DNA from: Escherichia phage BB1
Length of the DNA: 64,000 nucleotides
Sequence record: NC_106597.1
Reading direction: 5' to 3' (one strand)
A program made the position numbers and the translations under genes. The notes under the pieces are model-generated. The model saw nothing but the letters and a program-made list of their open reading frames with translations. It was not told the origin of the DNA and did no database searches. Positions 4,088 to 9,953 of the stretch are shown piece after piece; position 1 is the first letter of the stretch; each line of letters begins with the position of its first letter.

Positions 4088-4609
4088 TTAGAAATTTAGC
4101 TTCATAGCAAGAAAATTTTTCAAGTTTTCGGTAGACATCTCATCTACATCTACAGGAGAAACAAAGCCGTTTAATTTTCTAGCAAATTTTTCACCATCGG
4201 GATCATTGTCTCCAACAGCTACCAATTTAAAAGGTAGTAATTTCAGTTGCTTTAATAACGCTTTTCCTGGAGAAGAACCCAACATTGCTAGGGCTGGATA
4301 ACCAGCGTTATGTAACGCAACTGCCTTAAATACAGATTCAGCAATCAATACTACTTTTTCATCTCCATTGAGAGTTTCTAGTCCCCATACACACTGGGTA
4401 GTAGAATAAGTAAAGTATTTAGCTTCAAAGGGGCACTTACCATGACCTTTTGGAGCAGAAGGATTATAAGTTTGATAGCCCCTCAACATCCCAGAGAAGT
4501 CATACAACGGGACTGTTAGCCATCCTTCTGGACTTAACCAGCAATGATATTTATCTGTATCAAATCCCCTAGATAAGAGGTGCTGTGTTAGCTCATCAAC
4601 ATTCATATT
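4088..4609 (-). CDS. Toprim-domain-like protein (about 173 aa)
   Basis: Conserved-looking E (IAESVF) and DxD (VGDNDPDGEKF) resembling the Toprim fold; start moved to MNVDELTQ with GAGAGGAACC RBS downstream of promoter 4637-4665. Confidence 0.45.
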   Translation of the reverse strand, partial: NMNVDELTQHLLSRGFDTDKYHCWLSPEGWLTVPLYDFSGMLRGYQTYNPSAPKGHGKCPFEAKYFTYSTTQCVWGLETLNGDEKVVLIAESVFKAVALHNAGYPALAMLGSSPGKALLKQLKLLPFKLVAVGDNDPDGEKFARKLNGFVSPVDVDEMSTENLKNFLAMKLNF

Positions 4610-4636
4610 TGGTTCCTCTCTCAAATTTATAGATAT

Positions 4637-4665
4637 ATTATACAGAGAATTTAGCATTCAAGCAA
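4637..4665 (-). promoter_or_regulatory. early promoter (minus sense TTGCTT-17-TATAAT)
   Basis: attata 4637-4642, 17-bp spacer, aagcaa 4660-4665. Confidence 0.6.
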
Positions 4666-4781: not shown

Positions 4782-4810
4782 TTGACATTTTCGCTGGGGT
4801 AGTGTAAAGT
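4782..4810 (+). promoter_or_regulatory. sigma70-type promoter (TTGACA-17-TAAAGT) sharing the 13-mer TTGACATTTTCGC with the element at 34512
   Basis: Consensus -35 at 4782-4787; 17-bp spacer; -10-like TAAAGT at 4805-4810. Confidence 0.5.
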
Positions 4811-4872
4811 ATATGTTATGGATGAGTGATCAAAGAGACACACATTTTCTATATACTAGGAGGTGTCAAAAA

Positions 4873-5859
4873 ATGACAGAAGAAGTAGCTAAGAGTCCTG
4901 AGACCGTCGCTAGCGTTGCAGCAGAACTGCACCGTCACGAGGAATCAGATAAGAAAAAGTGGGAGAAGGTCAGAGCCTACGAAGAAAAACATCGTGAACA
5001 CGATGATGAAGAAGATGACGATGATGAACATTGTCATAAATATGGAAAACATAAAATGCAAGAACCAGTAAACGTATTCACTAGTGGCTTCCCTGGCCTA
5101 CTGGGTGGTTACCCAGCAAACGCAGGTGCTTTCGGTGGTGAAGGTATGGGACTATTCGGAGCTATCCTAATCGGTGCTCTATTAACAGGCGGATTCGGTG
5201 GTTTCGGTGGATTCGGTGGACGTGGTGTAGTTGGTGAAGGTACCGCAGTTGATGCGGTACTTCAGAACCAAGATACCGCTAGTATTCTAGCAGCTATTAA
5301 CACTACTCGTACAGAAGCTAATCAGGGTACTGGGGCTGTGTTAAGCGCAGTTAACAATGGTTTTAGCCAGACATCCCAAAACCAGAGCCGTGATACTCAG
5401 TCTGTACTAACTACGATTTATGGTACAGGTGCTAATCTGTCTAATCAGATCTGCCAGGAAACTCGCAACGTTATTCAGGGTCAGTTCGATCTTTCTCGCC
5501 AGATTGATCAATCTTTCGCAGCTAACCAGATAGCTCGTGCACAAGATAAATTTGATTCTGCACAGATCGCTTTCCAGCAGACTTTACAAACTAATAACCA
5601 GTTTGCCGCTGTTCAGGCTCAGATGTGTGCTAACCAGAACTCTCTGGAACGTCAGATCGCTGAATGTTGCTGTGAACTTCAGACTGCGATCGCTGGTGTA
5701 ACTACTGCGCGTATCCAGGATGAGTTAGATGCATGTCGCCTACGTGAGGCAATCGCTGCGGGTAATGGTGCTAACGGTCAGGTAATTAATCAAATCGCTG
5801 TAAGTCTTGGTGCAATCACTCAGACTCTGGCTGGTCTGCAGGCTAAACTGCCGGCTTAA
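4873..5859 (+). CDS. low-complexity protein: acidic/His-rich N-terminus, Gly-zipper hydrophobic segment (GGFGGFGGFGG), Q/N/S/T-rich C-terminal region
   Basis: AGGAGGTG RBS 7 nt before ATG at 4873 (track ORF starts earlier at 4813); by eye GC and codon choice look higher than neighbours. Confidence 0.6.
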   Translation: MTEEVAKSPETVASVAAELHRHEESDKKKWEKVRAYEEKHREHDDEEDDDDEHCHKYGKHKMQEPVNVFTSGFPGLLGGYPANAGAFGGEGMGLFGAILIGALLTGGFGGFGGFGGRGVVGEGTAVDAVLQNQDTASILAAINTTRTEANQGTGAVLSAVNNGFSQTSQNQSRDTQSVLTTIYGTGANLSNQICQETRNVIQGQFDLSRQIDQSFAANQIARAQDKFDSAQIAFQQTLQTNNQFAAVQAQMCANQNSLERQIAECCCELQTAIAGVTTARIQDELDACRLREAIAAGNGANGQVINQIAVSLGAITQTLAGLQAKLPA

Positions 5860-5880
5860 TATTAAGGGGAGGAGCCCATT

Positions 5881-6297
5881 ATGAGTAAATATGGTTTTGT
5901 AAATAACGGACTTAATCAAAGTATGGGCTCCCAGCAGCCCATTCCGGGTCTGGATAACCCCTACTTACAACAGTTGCAACAGCGTTTAGCAGAAGCGCAA
6001 CAGATGCAGCAACAACTCCAGCAAAACCCTGGAAGTGTGAGTCCTATGCAAATGATGCAGCAAATGAGCGGGCAGTCGCAAATGCCTCAACAAATGCAGC
6101 AACAGGTGCCTCAGCAGCAAGTTCAGCAACAAACCCAACAACCGCAGGTTTCTGCGGAAGGACAGGCAGTACTAGCCCTTTTCGAAGACTTCGCAAAGAC
6201 AGAGGATGGGAAACAGCTTGTATCACTTATGGGTAAGTTTAATAGCTTCTGCCAAAGCCAAGTTGCAAAAGCTCAAAATGGGGGTAGTAACTCCTAA
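5881..6297 (+). CDS. glutamine-rich low-complexity protein (138 aa)
   Basis: GGGGAGGAG RBS; long poly-Q/QM stretches. Confidence 0.55.
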   Translation: MSKYGFVNNGLNQSMGSQQPIPGLDNPYLQQLQQRLAEAQQMQQQLQQNPGSVSPMQMMQQMSGQSQMPQQMQQQVPQQQVQQQTQQPQVSAEGQAVLALFEDFAKTEDGKQLVSLMGKFNSFCQSQVAKAQNGGSNS

Positions 6298-6306
6298 GGA
6301 GGAAAT

Positions 6307-6501
6307 ATGTGTTGCAGAAAATCTGTTTCGTGCTGCCCAATGCCTGTAGCACGTTGTTGCTCTCCAGCAATGTTTACACAAATACCGGCGTTCAATCCCT
6401 TTGCCTTTAAGCCTACTCTTATCCTGCCCCCTAGAGTAGATTTTCAGTCAAGATTGGCCTCCCGTATGGGTGGTTGCTGTACACCGAGAGTATGGTTCTA
6501 A
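6307..6501 (+). CDS. small Cys-rich protein (64 aa, four CC dipeptides)
   Basis: TAAGGAGG RBS 5 nt upstream of ATG; followed by intrinsic terminator. Confidence 0.45.
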   Translation: MCCRKSVSCCPMPVARCCSPAMFTQIPAFNPFAFKPTLILPPRVDFQSRLASRMGGCCTPRVWF

Positions 6502-6511
6502 ACCAAAAACA

Positions 6512-6548
6512 AAAGCCCCTGCCGAAAGGTAAGGGGCTTTTTCTTTTG
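6512..6548 (+). terminator. rho-independent terminator
   Basis: Hairpin aaagcccct...aaggggcttt followed by T-run. Confidence 0.65.
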
Positions 6549-6556
6549 CCTTAAAT

Positions 6557-6592
6557 ACAGAAAAGCCCGCGCTCTCGTAGGAAACGCGGGCT
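6557..6592 (-). terminator. rho-independent terminator (minus sense), downstream of SPFH gene
   Basis: GC-rich hairpin gcccgcg...cgcgggc with T-run in minus sense. Confidence 0.55.
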
Positions 6593-6616
6593 TGGTTCGA
6601 AGATTACGTGTAACTA

Positions 6617-7564
6617 TTACTTGTTACGCATATCCATGATCATTTGACCATCGTAGCCAGTACCTACCACAGTCTGAGGTACACCACCTTGATACTTCTG
6701 AGCACGGATCATTTCAACTTCCAATTGCTTCCAACGAATCATCTCAGGAGTAATGGTACGTTGCAATGCGGCGTTAGCTTCAGCTTCTTTCTTAGCTGCG
6801 TACAGTTTAGCATCTGCGTCACGTTCATTAGCAATAGCTTGGTTGTTACGAGCTTCACGATCTGCTTCTGCTTGTTTAACTTTTTGCTGTGCTTCCTGTT
6901 CAACGCGAGCAAGTTCAGCTTTCGCAGCATTAACTTGCTCTTCACGAACTTTGGTATTCTGTACCTGTTCCATGATTACTGGCGGCAAAGTAATATCCTG
7001 AAGGAACACCTGCTTAACTGTGTAACCATATGGGCGTGCATACTCTTCAACTTCCTGTTGAATTGCAGTTTGCAATTGAGCCTGAATTTTAGCATCAAAT
7101 AAATCTTGTGCTTTAGGTACAGACTTACCAAACTCACGAATAGTAGACAGTAATTTTTCAGTTACATACTTGTCTAGTGCCTGATCCTGAGTACCTGCGT
7201 TAATACGGTTAATCGGTGCTTTAGAACCATCAAACTGCAACATAACAGTCAGGTCAACAGTGGATTTAAACTTATCCTGGCTAGGAACCTGAAGTTTATC
7301 TAATTTTACAGCAATATCTTTTGTACTAAAAGTATCGAAAGATGCAAACGGGTTTACAAGATGGAAACCCGGCAATACTGGATTAGGGTCTACTTTACCC
7401 AGGAATGTTTGGGTTTTAACCGTACCATCAGAAACAATAGTATATGAATTAAAAGCTAGGATTAAACCTGCTAAACCAACTACAGCACCAATACCCCAAC
7501 GTTTAATAGTACGAATTACTTTCTGCTCAGAAGTCAGTTCTTTCATATTTTTAGTAGCAAACAT
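6617..7564 (-). CDS. SPFH/band-7 (prohibitin/HflK-HflC-like) membrane protein
   Basis: N-terminal TM helix (IGAVVGLAGLILAF), SPFH-like core, C-terminal Ala/Glu-rich coiled coil; AAAGGAAAT RBS. Confidence 0.75.
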   Translation of the reverse strand: MFATKNMKELTSEQKVIRTIKRWGIGAVVGLAGLILAFNSYTIVSDGTVKTQTFLGKVDPNPVLPGFHLVNPFASFDTFSTKDIAVKLDKLQVPSQDKFKSTVDLTVMLQFDGSKAPINRINAGTQDQALDKYVTEKLLSTIREFGKSVPKAQDLFDAKIQAQLQTAIQQEVEEYARPYGYTVKQVFLQDITLPPVIMEQVQNTKVREEQVNAAKAELARVEQEAQQKVKQAEADREARNNQAIANERDADAKLYAAKKEAEANAALQRTITPEMIRWKQLEVEMIRAQKYQGGVPQTVVGTGYDGQMIMDMRNK

Positions 7565-7598
7565 ATATTTCCTTTGTTTTAGTTACAGTTAATAAAAT

Positions 7599-7673
7599 TG
7601 GCCGAGGTGACAGGATTCGAACCTGCATAAAGGAATTTAGAAGACTCCTGCCTCTCCCTTAGACTACACCCCG
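7599..7673 (-). tRNA. tRNA-Arg (anticodon UCU)
   Basis: Manual fold: T-arm GCAGG-TTCGAAT-CCTGT, anticodon stem with loop rc of ttagaag, acceptor pairs with one G-U, CCA encoded. Confidence 0.7.
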
Positions 7674-8172
7674 TTTAAGTATTTTTAAGAACTCTCGTAA
7701 AAACTCTTAAAAATACAGACGATACCGGGAGAGTCATAAGTCTCACTCATTAAGTATTTCAAGACAAAATACGGTAACGTCTATTATTTTCCAGTTTAAG
7801 TCAGGGTGACTTAGTGGTTATGTCCTGCGGTATATTGAGGACTCGGTTAGGCTTGGGGTCATGACTTCCCGCCTTTTGCTGCTACTCAACAGGAGTTATC
7901 GCGAATTACCTGTGCTATTGTGCACCATTAGTGACATCTCTCATGTCAGCATTTCCCACTTTGTGGATAGCTTGAAAAACTACTCCGATATGGAGAAAGA
8001 ACTTCACTATCCTAGAATACCTTCTAAAGTTCTTCTTTAGCCTGGACATAGTTAAATCGTAATAAAACTATTCAGCAGACTGGTTGGTTAGTCTGGAACC
8101 AACTACCGCGTGGTTTAGGCAGTGCGCAACTAACCTAGGAAGCTTTTACGTTAAAAGCATCAGTTATCCAGT

Positions 8173-8250
8173 TCTTACCGACCGTAGGATTCGAACCTAC
8201 ATCTTCCACCAGTTACGGCTTGATAATACCAATTATACTAGGACGGCAGT
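8173..8250 (-). tRNA. tRNA-like element (possible pseudo-tRNA)
   Basis: Canonical T-arm GTAGG-TTCGAAT-CCTAC but no CCA, mismatched acceptor and no clean anticodon arm. Confidence 0.3.
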
Positions 8251-8470
8251 GTTACTACATAAGTGATTTCCACACCCCACTATTTATAAATCAGAGAAGA
8301 GTTTAGGGGAGAGGTTTCAGACGCCTCATTTTACACGTTCTAGCCACTAACCGGGATTGCCGCCCCCTGTGTACTAGTTTTACAACTAACCCACCGACTC
8401 TATTCAATGCGCTCCGGTTGGGATTCTGCACTCAGCGTAATCGGCTCGCTGTTCCCTAATTTATGAATAT

Positions 8471-8499
8471 ATTATACAGAATTTATAAGCATTTAGCAA
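8471..8499 (-). promoter_or_regulatory. early promoter (minus sense TTGCTA-17-TATAAT)
   Basis: attata 8471-8476, 17-bp spacer, tagcaa 8494-8499; conserved caatttatgaa downstream. Confidence 0.65.
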
Positions 8500-8507
8500 A
8501 TGAATTT

Positions 8508-8942
8508 TTAGAAAAATTCACTAGCAATCAAAGCAGTTGTTTTACCGTCATAACGTCCTGGAAACTCTGCCTTAATGGTTTTCATTAAGAGAGCTTTGGT
8601 AATGCCGGGGTTTAGCTTAACCAGTTCTGCAAAGTATTTACGAATTTCAGTTTCAGTCAGTTGACTTGGCTGATACTCTTGCAGCATGGAATAAAGCAGT
8701 TGCTCATAGTCTACATCAGTAGGGACTTTCGTACCAACTTTAATAGCGCGCTGTTTTGCATTTTCTAGAGCCTTAATCTGAGCTTTCAGATAGGCTACAA
8801 ACTCGGTTCGAGTAACAATGTCTTTATCAATACGTTGCAGGTCGCCAATCATGGTCTGAAGATTAAGTGCCCGCTCTTTATCACCGTGAGTACGTGCTAG
8901 ACTAAGCAGTCCACGAAGGGTCGTTAGGATATTTTCACCCAT
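8508..8942 (-). CDS. hypothetical protein (144 aa)
   Basis: ORF; start overlaps stop of upstream small ORF (TAATG). Confidence 0.5.
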   Translation of the reverse strand: MGENILTTLRGLLSLARTHGDKERALNLQTMIGDLQRIDKDIVTRTEFVAYLKAQIKALENAKQRAIKVGTKVPTDVDYEQLLYSMLQEYQPSQLTETEIRKYFAELVKLNPGITKALLMKTIKAEFPGRYDGKTTALIASEFF

Positions 8943-9180: not shown

Positions 9181-9648
9181 TTAAGTTTTAGTGACAACAG
9201 GTTTATAAAATGTATGTCCCTTAATCTTAGTTGTTTTCTTAAACTTCTTTGTCCAGTAAGGTTTATCTTTACCGCTATGAAAGTATAACGCTCCATATGT
9301 GGGATCTTGCGGTAAATCAACGTAGTATATCACTCTAGCTAAATTCTTAGCGGTTTGCCAAGCCTCATCAGTTTTATCAACTTTTGGTCTCTTAGATACC
9401 CAAGAGAACTGGTTAGACTGATATACTACTTTACAGTAGGAATCCGGGAATTTACCGGAGTTTACACGGTTTTTAGTAACATGTGCAATCGCCGTCATTC
9501 CCTTTATGCCCTCACCACGACTTTCGAAATAGATATTTTTAGCAATGCAATCTATTTCTTTTGCATCGTGCGATGCCTGACTACTAAAGCTGAAGGTAAG
9601 GGCAGCTACTAAAAGCAAAGCTGCCTTCATTCTTTTTACTCCTGCCAA
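9181..9648 (-). CDS. secreted cell-wall hydrolase, SleB-like
   Basis: N-terminal signal peptide (MKAALLLVAALTFSFSSQA); motif IAKNIYFESRGEG...VYQSNQFSW typical of the SleB/cell-wall hydrolase family. Confidence 0.65.
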   Translation of the reverse strand: MAGVKRMKAALLLVAALTFSFSSQASHDAKEIDCIAKNIYFESRGEGIKGMTAIAHVTKNRVNSGKFPDSYCKVVYQSNQFSWVSKRPKVDKTDEAWQTAKNLARVIYYVDLPQDPTYGALYFHSGKDKPYWTKKFKKTTKIKGHTFYKPVVTKT

Positions 9649-9953
9649 TCATATTCAACACGATTGGGATTTTCTTTATACCCTAAGTCAAGCAAATCAT
9701 TACGCATATTTTGCTTAGCTACTGGGTTCGAGGTTACTAGTACCACTTTCTTTGGTCTCTGCCCAAATTCTAAGAGTAAACGAAGAATTTGATAACCTTC
9801 CATACCATCTACCGCCAAGTCATTATCCATATAAACGAAGTGGCCTGTGGTATCAGTTTTATTCAGAAACTCTACAGCGGCTTCTGGGGTTCGAATGATA
9901 ATGTCCATTCCGTGAAGATTACGCACATCATCAATCAAAATATGAAAAGTCAT
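9636..9953 (-). CDS. stand-alone receiver (REC/CheY-like) domain protein, tentative
   Basis: 105 aa with alternating beta-alpha pattern, acidic pocket (ILIDD...MDNDL) and KKVVLVTS motif; ACGAGG RBS. Confidence 0.4.
   Translation of the reverse strand: MTFHILIDDVRNLHGMDIIIRTPEAAVEFLNKTDTTGHFVYMDNDLAVDGMEGYQILRLLLEFGQRPKKVVLVTSNPVAKQNMRNDLLDLGYKENPNRVEYDWQE

What the first reader, a model, noticed from the sequence alone, without database searches (positions are those of the whole stretch)
6617..7564. Phage-encoded SPFH/HflK-HflC-like membrane protein
Single N-terminal TM helix, SPFH-like core and long Ala/Glu-rich coiled coil resemble HflK/HflC, which regulate the FtsH protease in the host. 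A phage copy could modulate host membrane proteolysis or membrane microdomains during infection. The gene has its own terminator and lies next to the unusual plus-strand cassette.
Basis: partly seen in the sequence, partly recalled or inferred. Interest (0 to 1): 0.4.

Follow-up and report, generated by a model that had tools for sequence, protein, structure and literature searches.

The report
Phage T5 prohibitin-like SPFH membrane protein
The gene is real and encodes a membrane-anchored SPFH ("band 7"/prohibitin-like) protein, but it is the already catalogued phage T5 gene T5.080, is not specifically HflK/HflC-like, and still has no known function.

Summary

The "HflK/HflC-like" reading is only partly supported. 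No HflK/HflC NCBIfam model hits. E. coli QmcA outscores HflC and HflK. The gene is solo, with no second SPFH or NfeD partner. It best fits a prohibitin-like sub-clade.

The common "lipoprotein" annotation is wrong: the protein has no cysteine.

Charge bias predicts a periplasm-facing domain, like HflK/C and prohibitin.

The gene is near-core in T5-likes, shared at 76-78% identity with unrelated T4-like phages, and under strong purifying selection (dN/dS about 0.02). Yet it is dispensable in the laboratory (published CRISPRi-ART "Not Fit"; natural deletion in phage NG_S8).

Most likely it forms a periplasm-facing SPFH ring or cage on the host inner membrane as an early accessory factor. An FtsH link is untested. 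Ordinary and already annotated, with unknown function.

The parts
6617..7564 (-). CDS for a 315-aa SPFH/Band-7 membrane protein, the orthologue of phage T5 gene T5.080 (YP_006908.1)
   Evidence: ORF; 312/315 identical to T5.080; Pfam Band_7 64.2 bits; PHROG 200 E=1.9e-86; dN/dS 0.022 against T5
7436..7498 (-). Codons for residues ~23-43: a single N-terminal transmembrane signal-anchor helix, preceded by a Lys/Arg-rich cytoplasmic tail (residues 1-22)
   Evidence: Hydropathy maximum 1.79 at residues 25-43, the only such segment. AlphaFold helix 12-39. Net charge C-flank minus N-flank is negative in 34/37 family members and positive in none. No Cys and no lipobox
6890..7411 (-). Codons for residues 52-225: the SPFH (Band 7) alpha/beta core
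6695..6982 (-). Codons for residues 195-290: a 76-residue Ala/Glu/Lys/Gln-rich helix (CC1) plus a second helix (CC2), the elements that form the wall and roof in solved SPFH cages
   Evidence: Model helices 195-270 and 273-290, pLDDT 75-90. Composition. Length variation across the family falls mostly (about 97%) on whole helical turns: -11, -7, +4, +8, +11, +15, +22, +26
6620..6694 (-). Codons for residues 291-315: the conserved C-terminal tail (GGVPQTVVG..Y.G..I.D.R). It is low-confidence in the monomer model and is a candidate inter-subunit strand of the cage cap
   Evidence: Conserved columns G293, V295, P296, T298, G301, G306, D311, R313; pLDDT below 50 in the monomer. The role is inferred by analogy to solved cages
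7570..7574 (-). Shine-Dalgarno sequence AAGGA, 5 nt (6 positions) upstream of the ATG
   Evidence: Read from the sequence; identical in T5
7599..7673 (-). tRNA-Arg(UCU) immediately upstream on the same strand, co-transcribed with the SPFH gene
   Evidence: ARAGORN; Rfam tRNA 49.3 bits; T5 tRNAR at the same position
7674..8470 (-). Homologue of T5 'RNAX' (a stable RNA of unknown function), with an embedded tRNA-like element at 8176-8247. It forms the 5' part of the transcription unit
   Evidence: Alignment to the T5 RNAX region; T5 annotation; Rfam tRNA 35.5 bits at 8176-8247
8471..8499 (-). Sigma-70-type promoter (TTGCTA-17-TATAAT), equivalent to T5 early promoter P16-17. It is the nearest upstream promoter for the SPFH gene
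   Evidence: Promoter scan, 10/12 matches; sequence identical to T5 across both hexamers; T5 annotation 'promoter P 16-17'
6563..6593 (-). Intrinsic terminator hairpin for the SPFH transcript (12-bp stem followed by TTTTCTGTATTT). It also carries the GA|GCGC motif that T5 annotates as a major single-strand nick site
   Evidence: Terminator scan; alignment to T5 and the T5 misc_feature; sequence
6511..6542 (.). Bidirectional intrinsic terminator (A-run, GCCCCT...AGGGGC, T-run) shared by the convergent plus-strand cassette and the SPFH unit
   Evidence: T5 annotation 'efficient bidirectional rho-independent transcription terminator'; alignment; sequence

Best explanation
This is the T5.080 orthologue. 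It is an accessory gene in T5's early region, the last cistron of a promoter - RNAX - tRNA-Arg - SPFH - terminator unit. It encodes a solo, prohibitin-like member of the SPFH superfamily. Shown: the SPFH fold, a single N-terminal hydrophobic anchor, a 76-residue helix followed by a second helix and a conserved tail, strong purifying selection, and dispensability in laboratory culture. Inferred: the Lys/Arg-rich N-terminus stays in the cytoplasm and the SPFH domain and coiled coil face the periplasm, the topology of HflK/C and mitochondrial prohibitin. There the protein would self-assemble, as every structurally solved SPFH protein of this architecture does, into a homo-oligomeric ring or cage that fences off a patch of the host inner membrane. 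By enclosing or excluding an inner-membrane client, it would tune a host membrane process to the phage's benefit under natural conditions. The client is unknown. FtsH is the leading candidate only because the two solved SPFH cages with this topology both enclose FtsH-family proteases.
Against: Oligomerisation, topology and client were not tested, because only a monomer could be modelled (pTM 0.44). The charge rule is crude: the known periplasmic controls HflK and HflC score 0, not negative. The same rule gave mixed signs for the bacterial chromosomal relatives, although their start codons were assigned crudely. Nothing in the sequence points specifically to FtsH. Published knock-down shows no phenotype, so no functional read-out exists. 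Early expression is inferred from the position of the T5 promoter, not measured here.
Confidence: 0.55

Rival explanations
1. One reading: a phage HflK/HflC analogue that binds the periplasmic domain of host FtsH and changes which membrane or regulatory substrates FtsH degrades during infection.
Against: No HflK/HflC family model hits. The sequence is closer to QmcA and prohibitin than to the host's HflK/C: 32.2 against 18.8 and 0.8 bits. hhalign matches only the TM helix and first strand. It is a single gene, whereas HflK/C is an obligate hetero-oligomer. T5 is strictly lytic, so the classical Hfl phenotype (lambda CII stability) has no counterpart. Knock-down has no fitness effect.
Confidence: 0.2
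2. Lysis-timing factor: the periplasm-facing SPFH assembly corrals or stabilises holin or antiholin complexes and so delays or sharpens lysis.
For: In the T4-like phages RB16 and PMBT1 the gene directly follows rI (the lysis-inhibition antiholin) and rI.-1 on the same strand. In Aeromonas phage 31 it lies in the same tk-rI region. Both act in the periplasm or inner membrane.
Against: RB16 and PMBT1 share this gene order and are members of the same family (Straboviridae), so the observations may not be independent. In phage 31, rI is 3.2 kb away, and in PX29 no rI is nearby. In T5-likes the neighbours are tRNAs and RNAX, not the lysis genes. From my own knowledge of T4-like genomes, not from a tool, the tk-rI interval is a variable region. 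The gene sits in an early unit, not a late one.
Confidence: 0.1
3. Competition or defence factor. The cage either protects the inner membrane against abortive-infection effectors or envelope stress, or blocks DNA entry by superinfecting phages.
For: The profile is typical of accessory genes: dispensable in the laboratory yet strongly conserved, and exchanged horizontally among unrelated phages that share hosts. A different SPFH gene in Vi01-like phage PhiSH19 sits next to a superinfection-exclusion gene (PMC3220722). Other SPFH proteins take part in membrane-stress responses (PMC8581546, listed).
Against: No hit to any PADLOC defence model. No experiment links it to exclusion or counter-defence. 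The membrane-stress SPFH proteins studied so far face the cytoplasm.
Confidence: 0.13
4. A lipoprotein, as annotated in RefSeq T5, in PHROG 200 and in many GenBank records.
For: Annotation only: 'lipoprotein' in NC_005859 T5.080, PHROG 200 and many other records.
Against: The protein contains no cysteine at all. 0 of 37 family members have a lipobox, and 32 of 37 have no Cys anywhere. Lipid modification by Lgt requires an invariant Cys.
Confidence: 0.01

Closest known systems
Phage T5 gene T5.080 (YP_006908.1) / PHROG 200
   Same: It is the same gene: 312/315 identical residues, the same flanking tRNA-Arg, RNAX, promoter and terminators, and a PHROG 200 match at E=1.9e-86.
   Different: Three conservative substitutions. 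The upstream RNAX region has a ~147-nt insertion and an ~87-nt deletion relative to T5.
Prohibitins: eukaryotic PHB1/PHB2, and the 'prokaryotic prohibitin' subfamily SPFH4 of Hinderhofer et al. 2009 (PMC2636767)
   Different: Only 15-19% identity. Eukaryotic prohibitins are PHB1/PHB2 hetero-oligomers, whereas this is one gene. Assignment to SPFH4 was not tested against that paper's HMMs.
E. coli HflK/HflC (SPFH3), the FtsH modulator
   Different: 17-18% identity. No HflK/HflC family HMM hit. HMM scores of 18.8 and 0.8 bits are lower than for QmcA. Single gene rather than an adjacent pair. HflK has a long N-terminal extension that is absent here. FtsH binding is untested.
E. coli QmcA-YbbJ (stomatin-like SPFH1 with NfeD)
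   Same: The closest E. coli paralogue by sequence: 32.2 bits and PDB 8z5g E=1.8e-6. Similar length (305 against 315 aa) and the same order of TM helix, SPFH domain, coiled coil and tail.
   Different: No NfeD gene next to the phage gene. QmcA faces the cytoplasm (PMC2636767) and its charge bias has the opposite sign.
Other viral SPFH/Band-7 proteins (Vibrio, Rhizobium and Streptomyces phages; RaK2-like and Vi01-like phages; giant viruses)
   Same: Same fold and roughly the same length (Foldseek against BFVD, E down to 8e-18). All lack a known function (PMC7760394 and PMC13239085).
   Different: 14-22% identity, so these are separate lineages and probably independent acquisitions.

Membership tests
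SPFH / Band 7 superfamily (Pfam PF01145) | Sequence matches the family HMM above the curated threshold | tested here: met
   64.2 bits against a cut-off of 23.6, E=2e-17, profile positions 13-176 of 176
SPFH / Band 7 superfamily (Pfam PF01145) | Alpha/beta SPFH fold | tested here: met
SPFH / Band 7 superfamily (Pfam PF01145) | N-terminal membrane anchor and C-terminal coiled-coil helices | tested here: met
   Hydropathy and model helix 12-39; helices 195-270 and 273-290; helical-turn indel periodicity
SPFH / Band 7 superfamily (Pfam PF01145) | Assembly into a large ring or cage on a membrane | not testable with these tools
   Only monomer prediction was available. Needs multimer modelling, BN-PAGE or cryo-EM
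HflK/HflC (FtsH modulators; SPFH3) | Matches the HflK or HflC family model | tested here: not met
   No NCBIfam family at E<=1. PDB phmmer and hmmsearch find no HflK/C chain at E<=10. hhalign probability is 13% for HflK and 66% for HflC, over only 41-47 columns
HflK/HflC (FtsH modulators; SPFH3) | Two adjacent paralogous genes forming a hetero-oligomer | tested here: not met
   Single SPFH gene in the window, in T5 and in T4-like phages
HflK/HflC (FtsH modulators; SPFH3) | Type II topology with a periplasmic SPFH domain | tested here: inconclusive
   Charge bias favours N-in in 34/37 members, but the rule scores the HflK and HflC controls at 0. This is a prediction only
HflK/HflC (FtsH modulators; SPFH3) | Physical and functional interaction with FtsH | not testable with these tools
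   Requires pull-down, substrate-turnover assays or multimer modelling
Stomatin-like SPFH1 (QmcA) with NfeD operon partner | Adjacent NfeD-family gene | tested here: not met
   Neighbours are tRNA-Arg/RNAX and a convergent cassette with no Pfam NfeD hit. Conserved neighbours of the chromosomal relatives that were Pfam-scanned include no NfeD or second SPFH; recurrent clusters c1 (~174 aa) and c4 (~115 aa) next to the Methylococcaceae copies were not annotated
Prokaryotic prohibitin subfamily (SPFH4, Hinderhofer 2009) | Solo SPFH gene most similar to prohibitins, with no NfeD | tested here: inconclusive
Bacterial lipoprotein (current annotation of T5.080 and PHROG 200) | Lipobox with an invariant Cys after a signal peptide | tested here: not met
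   Zero Cys in the protein; no lipobox in 37/37 members
Known anti-phage defence system components (PADLOC) | Match to a defence-system protein model | tested here: not met
   No family at E<=0.1

The most novel reading that the evidence does not exclude
The phage SPFH protein builds its own periplasm-facing cage on the host inner membrane and uses it to capture a specific host or phage client. Candidates include FtsH, a holin/antiholin complex, or the entry channel of a superinfecting phage. That would make it the first virus-encoded SPFH scaffold with a defined target. The Morganella/Providencia chromosomal copies would then be a domesticated version of this phage tool.
Probability: 0.15. 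Interest if true: 0.6.

Novelty: already known. Interest (0 to 1): 0.3.

Why it matters
SPFH cages (HflK/C, prohibitin, stomatin, flotillin, erlin) have only recently been solved, and their cellular logic is still debated. Hundreds of lytic phages, and giant viruses too, carry their own SPFH gene, and recent papers state that nobody knows why (PMC7760394, PMC13239085). T5.080 would be a tractable entry point. It sits in a model phage, is a single gene, is dispensable in the laboratory yet strongly conserved, and has chromosomal descendants in Morganellaceae. Practically, this check removes a widely propagated mis-annotation ("lipoprotein") and cautions against labelling the gene as HflK/HflC or "FtsH modulator" on fold similarity alone. 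As a discovery, though, it adds little, because the gene and its SPFH domain are already in public records.

Tried and rejected
- **NCBIfam and PADLOC scans:** no hits.
- **hhalign of the family profile against E. coli HflK and HflC:** only the TM helix and first strand aligned.
- **Full-text search for 'T5.080':** 0 papers. Searches for a characterised phage SPFH found only statements that its function is unknown.
- **HIDEN-SEQ preprint:** as far as the passages retrieved show, it maps T4, Bas37 and Bas54; it has no mention of SPFH, prohibitin or Demerecviridae/Markadamsvirinae, so it gave nothing on this gene.
- **Conserved-neighbour analysis of 60 bacterial loci:** looked for an NfeD, FtsH or second-SPFH partner. 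None stood out; synteny is only clade-specific, for example trpBA-accD-folC upstream in Methylophagaceae. Clusters c1 and c4 were left unannotated.
- **Functional link to the plus-strand cassette:** rejected on distribution, 221 records against 724.
- **rI adjacency as evidence for a lysis role:** down-weighted, because it holds only in RB16 and PMBT1, which share the same local gene order, and not in PX29 or T5.
- **Context of distant relative P0133:** the contigs were too short to be informative.
- **Charge-rule topology for the bacterial relatives:** mixed signs (24 negative, 13 zero, 25 positive), probably because ORF starts were assigned crudely; treated as inconclusive.
- **Non-functional relic:** rejected on dN/dS of 0.02-0.07.

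Full report
**What is there.** The window is a T5-like phage (Demerecviridae, Tequintavirus). Region 5800-8600 is 99.4% identical at the nucleotide level to Escherichia phages SUT_E420, EC148 and T5_ev212, and it matches 452 phage records in total. The ORF named in the finding exists exactly as stated: 6617..7564 on the minus strand, ATG start, 315 aa. It has an AAGGA ribosome-binding site 5 nt (6 positions) upstream of the ATG. The protein is 312/315 identical to T5.080 (YP_006908.1) of reference phage T5.

**Checking the descriptive claims.** All of them hold.
- There is a single hydrophobic segment, residues ~23-43 (best 19-residue Kyte-Doolittle window 1.79), with nothing comparable elsewhere.
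- Pfam Band_7/SPFH matches residues 52-225 at 64.2 bits against a cut-off of 23.6.
- Residues 205-275 contain 18 Ala and 11 Glu out of 71.
- An AlphaFold2 model built on a 37-sequence alignment has mean pLDDT 76 and pTM 0.44. It shows helix 12-39, an alpha/beta core, one 76-residue helix (195-270), a second helix (273-290), and a low-confidence but conserved tail.
- A 12-bp, 7-GC hairpin followed by a T-run lies 24 nt after the stop codon.
- A second hairpin at 6515-6537 is T5's annotated 'efficient bidirectional rho-independent terminator', shared with the convergent plus-strand genes.

**Transcription unit.** T5's annotation and an alignment to T5 show no promoter directly in front of the gene. 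The nearest is early promoter P16-17, which corresponds to window 8499-8471 (TTGCTA-17-TATAAT) and is identical to T5 across both hexamers. It is followed by the ~0.8-kb 'RNAX' stable-RNA region, which contains a tRNA-like element at 8176-8247. Then come tRNA-Arg(UCU) at 7599-7673, the SPFH ORF, and the terminator. The SPFH message is therefore the 3' cistron of a stable-RNA/tRNA precursor. Early timing is inferred from this layout, not measured.

**Is it HflK/HflC-like?** Not specifically.
- No NCBIfam model matches, even at E<=1; that library holds the HflK and HflC models.
- Sequence searches of the PDB with the single protein or the family profile find QmcA (E about 1e-6) and prohibitins (1e-4 to 1e-2), but no HflK/C chain at E<=10.
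- A family HMM scores the host's four SPFH paralogues as QmcA 32.2 bits, HflC 18.8, HflK 0.8 and YqiK -29.7.
- hhalign aligns only the TM helix and first strand to HflK (probability 13%) and HflC (66%).
- The gene is solo. HflK/C is encoded by an adjacent pair, and QmcA-type genes come with an NfeD gene. Neither partner is present here, in T5, in T4-like phages, or next to the chromosomal relatives whose neighbours I annotated; two recurrent neighbour clusters (c1, c4) beside the Methylococcaceae copies were not annotated.
- It fits best with the 'prokaryotic prohibitin' group (SPFH4) of Hinderhofer et al. 2009. That paper describes SPFH4 as diverse, experimentally unstudied and probably periplasm-facing (PMC2636767). 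I could not test this assignment against the paper's models.

**Topology.** The 15 residues before the TM helix carry more positive charge than the 15 after it. K+R averages 3.8 against 1.7, with N greater than C in 31/37 members. The net-charge difference (C flank minus N flank) is negative in 34/37 members, zero in 3 and positive in none. The cytoplasm-facing controls QmcA and YqiK score +1 and +5, and the periplasmic controls HflK and HflC score 0. This favours an N-in orientation with a periplasmic SPFH domain, as in HflK/C and prohibitin, but it is a crude prediction.

**The 'lipoprotein' label.** RefSeq T5, PHROG 200 and many GenBank records call the protein a lipoprotein. This is wrong. 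The protein has no cysteine, and none of 37 family members has a lipobox.

**Evidence for a regular assembly.** I measured the span between two invariant anchors of the long helix in 253 family members that had both anchors aligned. It differs from the window protein by -11, -7, -3, +4, +8, +11, +15, +22 or +26 residues in almost all cases. These are whole numbers of helical turns (about 3.6 residues per turn, including heptad and hendecad steps). This is what is expected if the helix packs side by side in a wall, as in solved SPFH cages. Oligomerisation itself could not be tested.

**Distribution and evolution.**
- tblastn finds the protein in 724 phage records: T5-likes at 88-100% identity, T4-like myoviruses (RB16, RB43, and Klebsiella, Cronobacter and Enterobacter phages) at 76-78%, Aeromonas T4-likes at about 61%, and Vibrio phages at 31-41%.
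- About 439 records carry it at >=80% identity, compared with 458 records that carry the neighbouring T5.081. It is therefore close to a core gene in T5-like phages.
- An exhaustive search of 1.84 billion cluster representatives finds only 957 hits at E<=1e-3 and 36 at <=1e-30. This is a compact sub-clade, not a recent copy of a host gene.
- Bacterial genomes hold two kinds of relatives. Methylotrophic and marine Gammaproteobacteria have a chromosomal solo gene at 33-41% identity; in Methylophagaceae it follows trpBA-accD-folC. Morganella and Providencia have a chromosomal copy at 57-59% identity among ordinary metabolic and transport genes.
- In a bootstrapped NJ tree the Morganellaceae copies are monophyletic (100/100) and sister to P0113 (99/100, 82% identity). 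P0113 lies on a contig with T5-like synteny. The Morganellaceae copies sit inside the phage clade (100/100), and the methylotroph clade lies outside it (94/100). This argues for transfer from a lytic T5-like phage into the Morganellaceae chromosome.

**Selection and dispensability.** Window against T5 shows 53 synonymous and 5 non-synonymous changes (dN/dS 0.022). RB16 against PMBT1 gives 0.064. The published transcriptome-wide CRISPRi-ART screen of T5 classed T5.080 as 'Not Fit' (7 guides, fitness -4.28, p about 0.85) and listed its function as unknown (PMC11879866 supplementary files 8 and 16). The Epseptimavirus NG_S8 has naturally lost the block between tRNA-Arg and tRNA-Ser, keeping only the last 42 codons of the SPFH gene. 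Split copies exist in phages bastian and CPRSB. The profile is that of a conserved accessory gene whose benefit does not show in standard culture.

**Neighbourhood.** The plus-strand cassette (T5.077-079 orthologues, 4813-6501) does not travel with the SPFH gene. T5.077 homologues occur in 221 records and in none of the T4-like carriers, so adjacency in T5 carries no functional weight. In RB16 and PMBT1 the gene directly follows rI and rI.-1, and in Aeromonas phage 31 it lies in the same tk-rI interval. In PX29 no rI is nearby. This is a weak hint of a lysis-related role.

**Mechanism.** The best-supported reading is structural. T5.080 is an early accessory protein anchored in the inner membrane, probably facing the periplasm. 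It would self-assemble into an SPFH ring or cage and thereby enclose or exclude some membrane client. I put about 0.55 on this statement as a whole: SPFH identity is near-certain, while cage formation and topology are inferred. Which client is involved is open. I put about 0.2 on FtsH by analogy, about 0.1 on holin/antiholin control, and about 0.13 on exclusion or protection against membrane-acting defence.

**Novelty.** The gene is already in the reference T5 genome, and many records already annotate it as SPFH or band 7. Related viral SPFH proteins are widespread, and the literature says explicitly that their function is unknown. The finding is therefore correct but already known, and of modest interest.

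Noticed in passing
L010-L022 (Providencia and Morganella chromosomes), e.g. L021:5968-6939; compared with L075:5001-5960: Morganellaceae chromosomes carry a copy of this phage SPFH gene among ordinary metabolic and transport genes. It nests inside the phage clade, sister to a divergent T5-like phage copy (99/100 bootstrap, 82% identity). T5-like phages are strictly lytic, so this looks like transfer from a non-integrating phage into the chromosome. Providencia, M. morganii and M. psychrotolerans each have a different chromosomal context.
   Followed up: partly
window 4813-6501 (+): The plus-strand cassette (T5.077/078/079 orthologues; PHROG 8119, PHROG 7894 and a 64-aa Cys-rich ORF) has its own promoter-like site at 4782-4810. 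It is found in only 221 phage records, about half of T5-likes, and all three genes are 'Not Fit' in CRISPRi-ART. The first protein has a Gly-rich hydrophobic stretch followed by Gln/Asn-rich sequence, and the second is very Gln-rich. There are no Pfam or PADLOC hits.
   Followed up: partly
window 6563-6593, nick motif about 6572/6573 (-): The terminator hairpin right after the SPFH gene contains GA|GCGC on the minus strand. T5 annotates exactly this position as a 'major DNA single-chain interruption'. One of T5's site-specific nicks therefore lies inside a terminator stem.
   Followed up: partly
window 7674-8470 (-): This is the homologue of T5 'RNAX' (a stable RNA of unknown function). Relative to T5 it has a ~147-nt insertion just after the promoter and an ~87-nt deletion further on. 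It contains a tRNA-like element at 8176-8247 (Rfam tRNA 35.5 bits) that ARAGORN did not call and that one GenBank record labels 'tRNA-OTHER'.
   Followed up: partly
family-wide; window residues 204-267 of the protein (6764-6955): Length differences in the long helix across 253 homologues fall almost entirely (about 97%) on -11, -7, -3, +4, +8, +11, +15, +22 or +26 residues. These are whole helical turns, consistent with a helix packed in a regular wall.
   Followed up: yes
L006:3263-4927 (RB16) and L070:2218-3900 (PMBT1): In these T4-like phages the SPFH gene directly follows rI (the lysis-inhibition antiholin) and rI.-1 on the same strand. In Aeromonas phage 31 (L007) it lies in the same tk-rI interval, but 3.2 kb from rI.
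   Followed up: partly
window 9181-9648 (-) and 8508-8942 (-); L075 and L076: The T5.083 orthologue is a SleB-type cell-wall hydrolase (Pfam Hydrolase_2, 88.9 bits) with what looks like an N-terminal signal peptide, and it is annotated 'endolysin'. The order Hydrolase_2 - YqeY-like - RNA region - SPFH is kept even in a divergent T5-like contig (~60% identity).
   Followed up: no
window 9636-9953 (-): The T5.084 orthologue matches Pfam cREC_REC, the 'cyclic-phosphate processing receiver domain' (56.8 bits). This is an unusual domain for a phage early gene.
   Followed up: no
window 4088-4657 (-): The T5.076 orthologue, a small Toprim protein, is annotated 'DNA primase' in GenBank and PHROGs. 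The CRISPRi-ART re-annotation of T5 lists it as 'anti-defense, Known, Semi-Fit'. The two annotations disagree.
   Followed up: no
public records OR848805.1, L009 (NZ_JBHSCL010000010.1) and protein cluster P0028: Several records that hold this gene look mislabelled. A 3.6-kb 'Listeria phage LM 4-14-1' record is 99.7% identical to the T5-like protein. A 178-kb contig in a 'Flagellimonas marina' assembly looks like a T4-like phage genome. A Klebsiella 'plasmid' of 174 kb carries the T4-like version.
   Followed up: no
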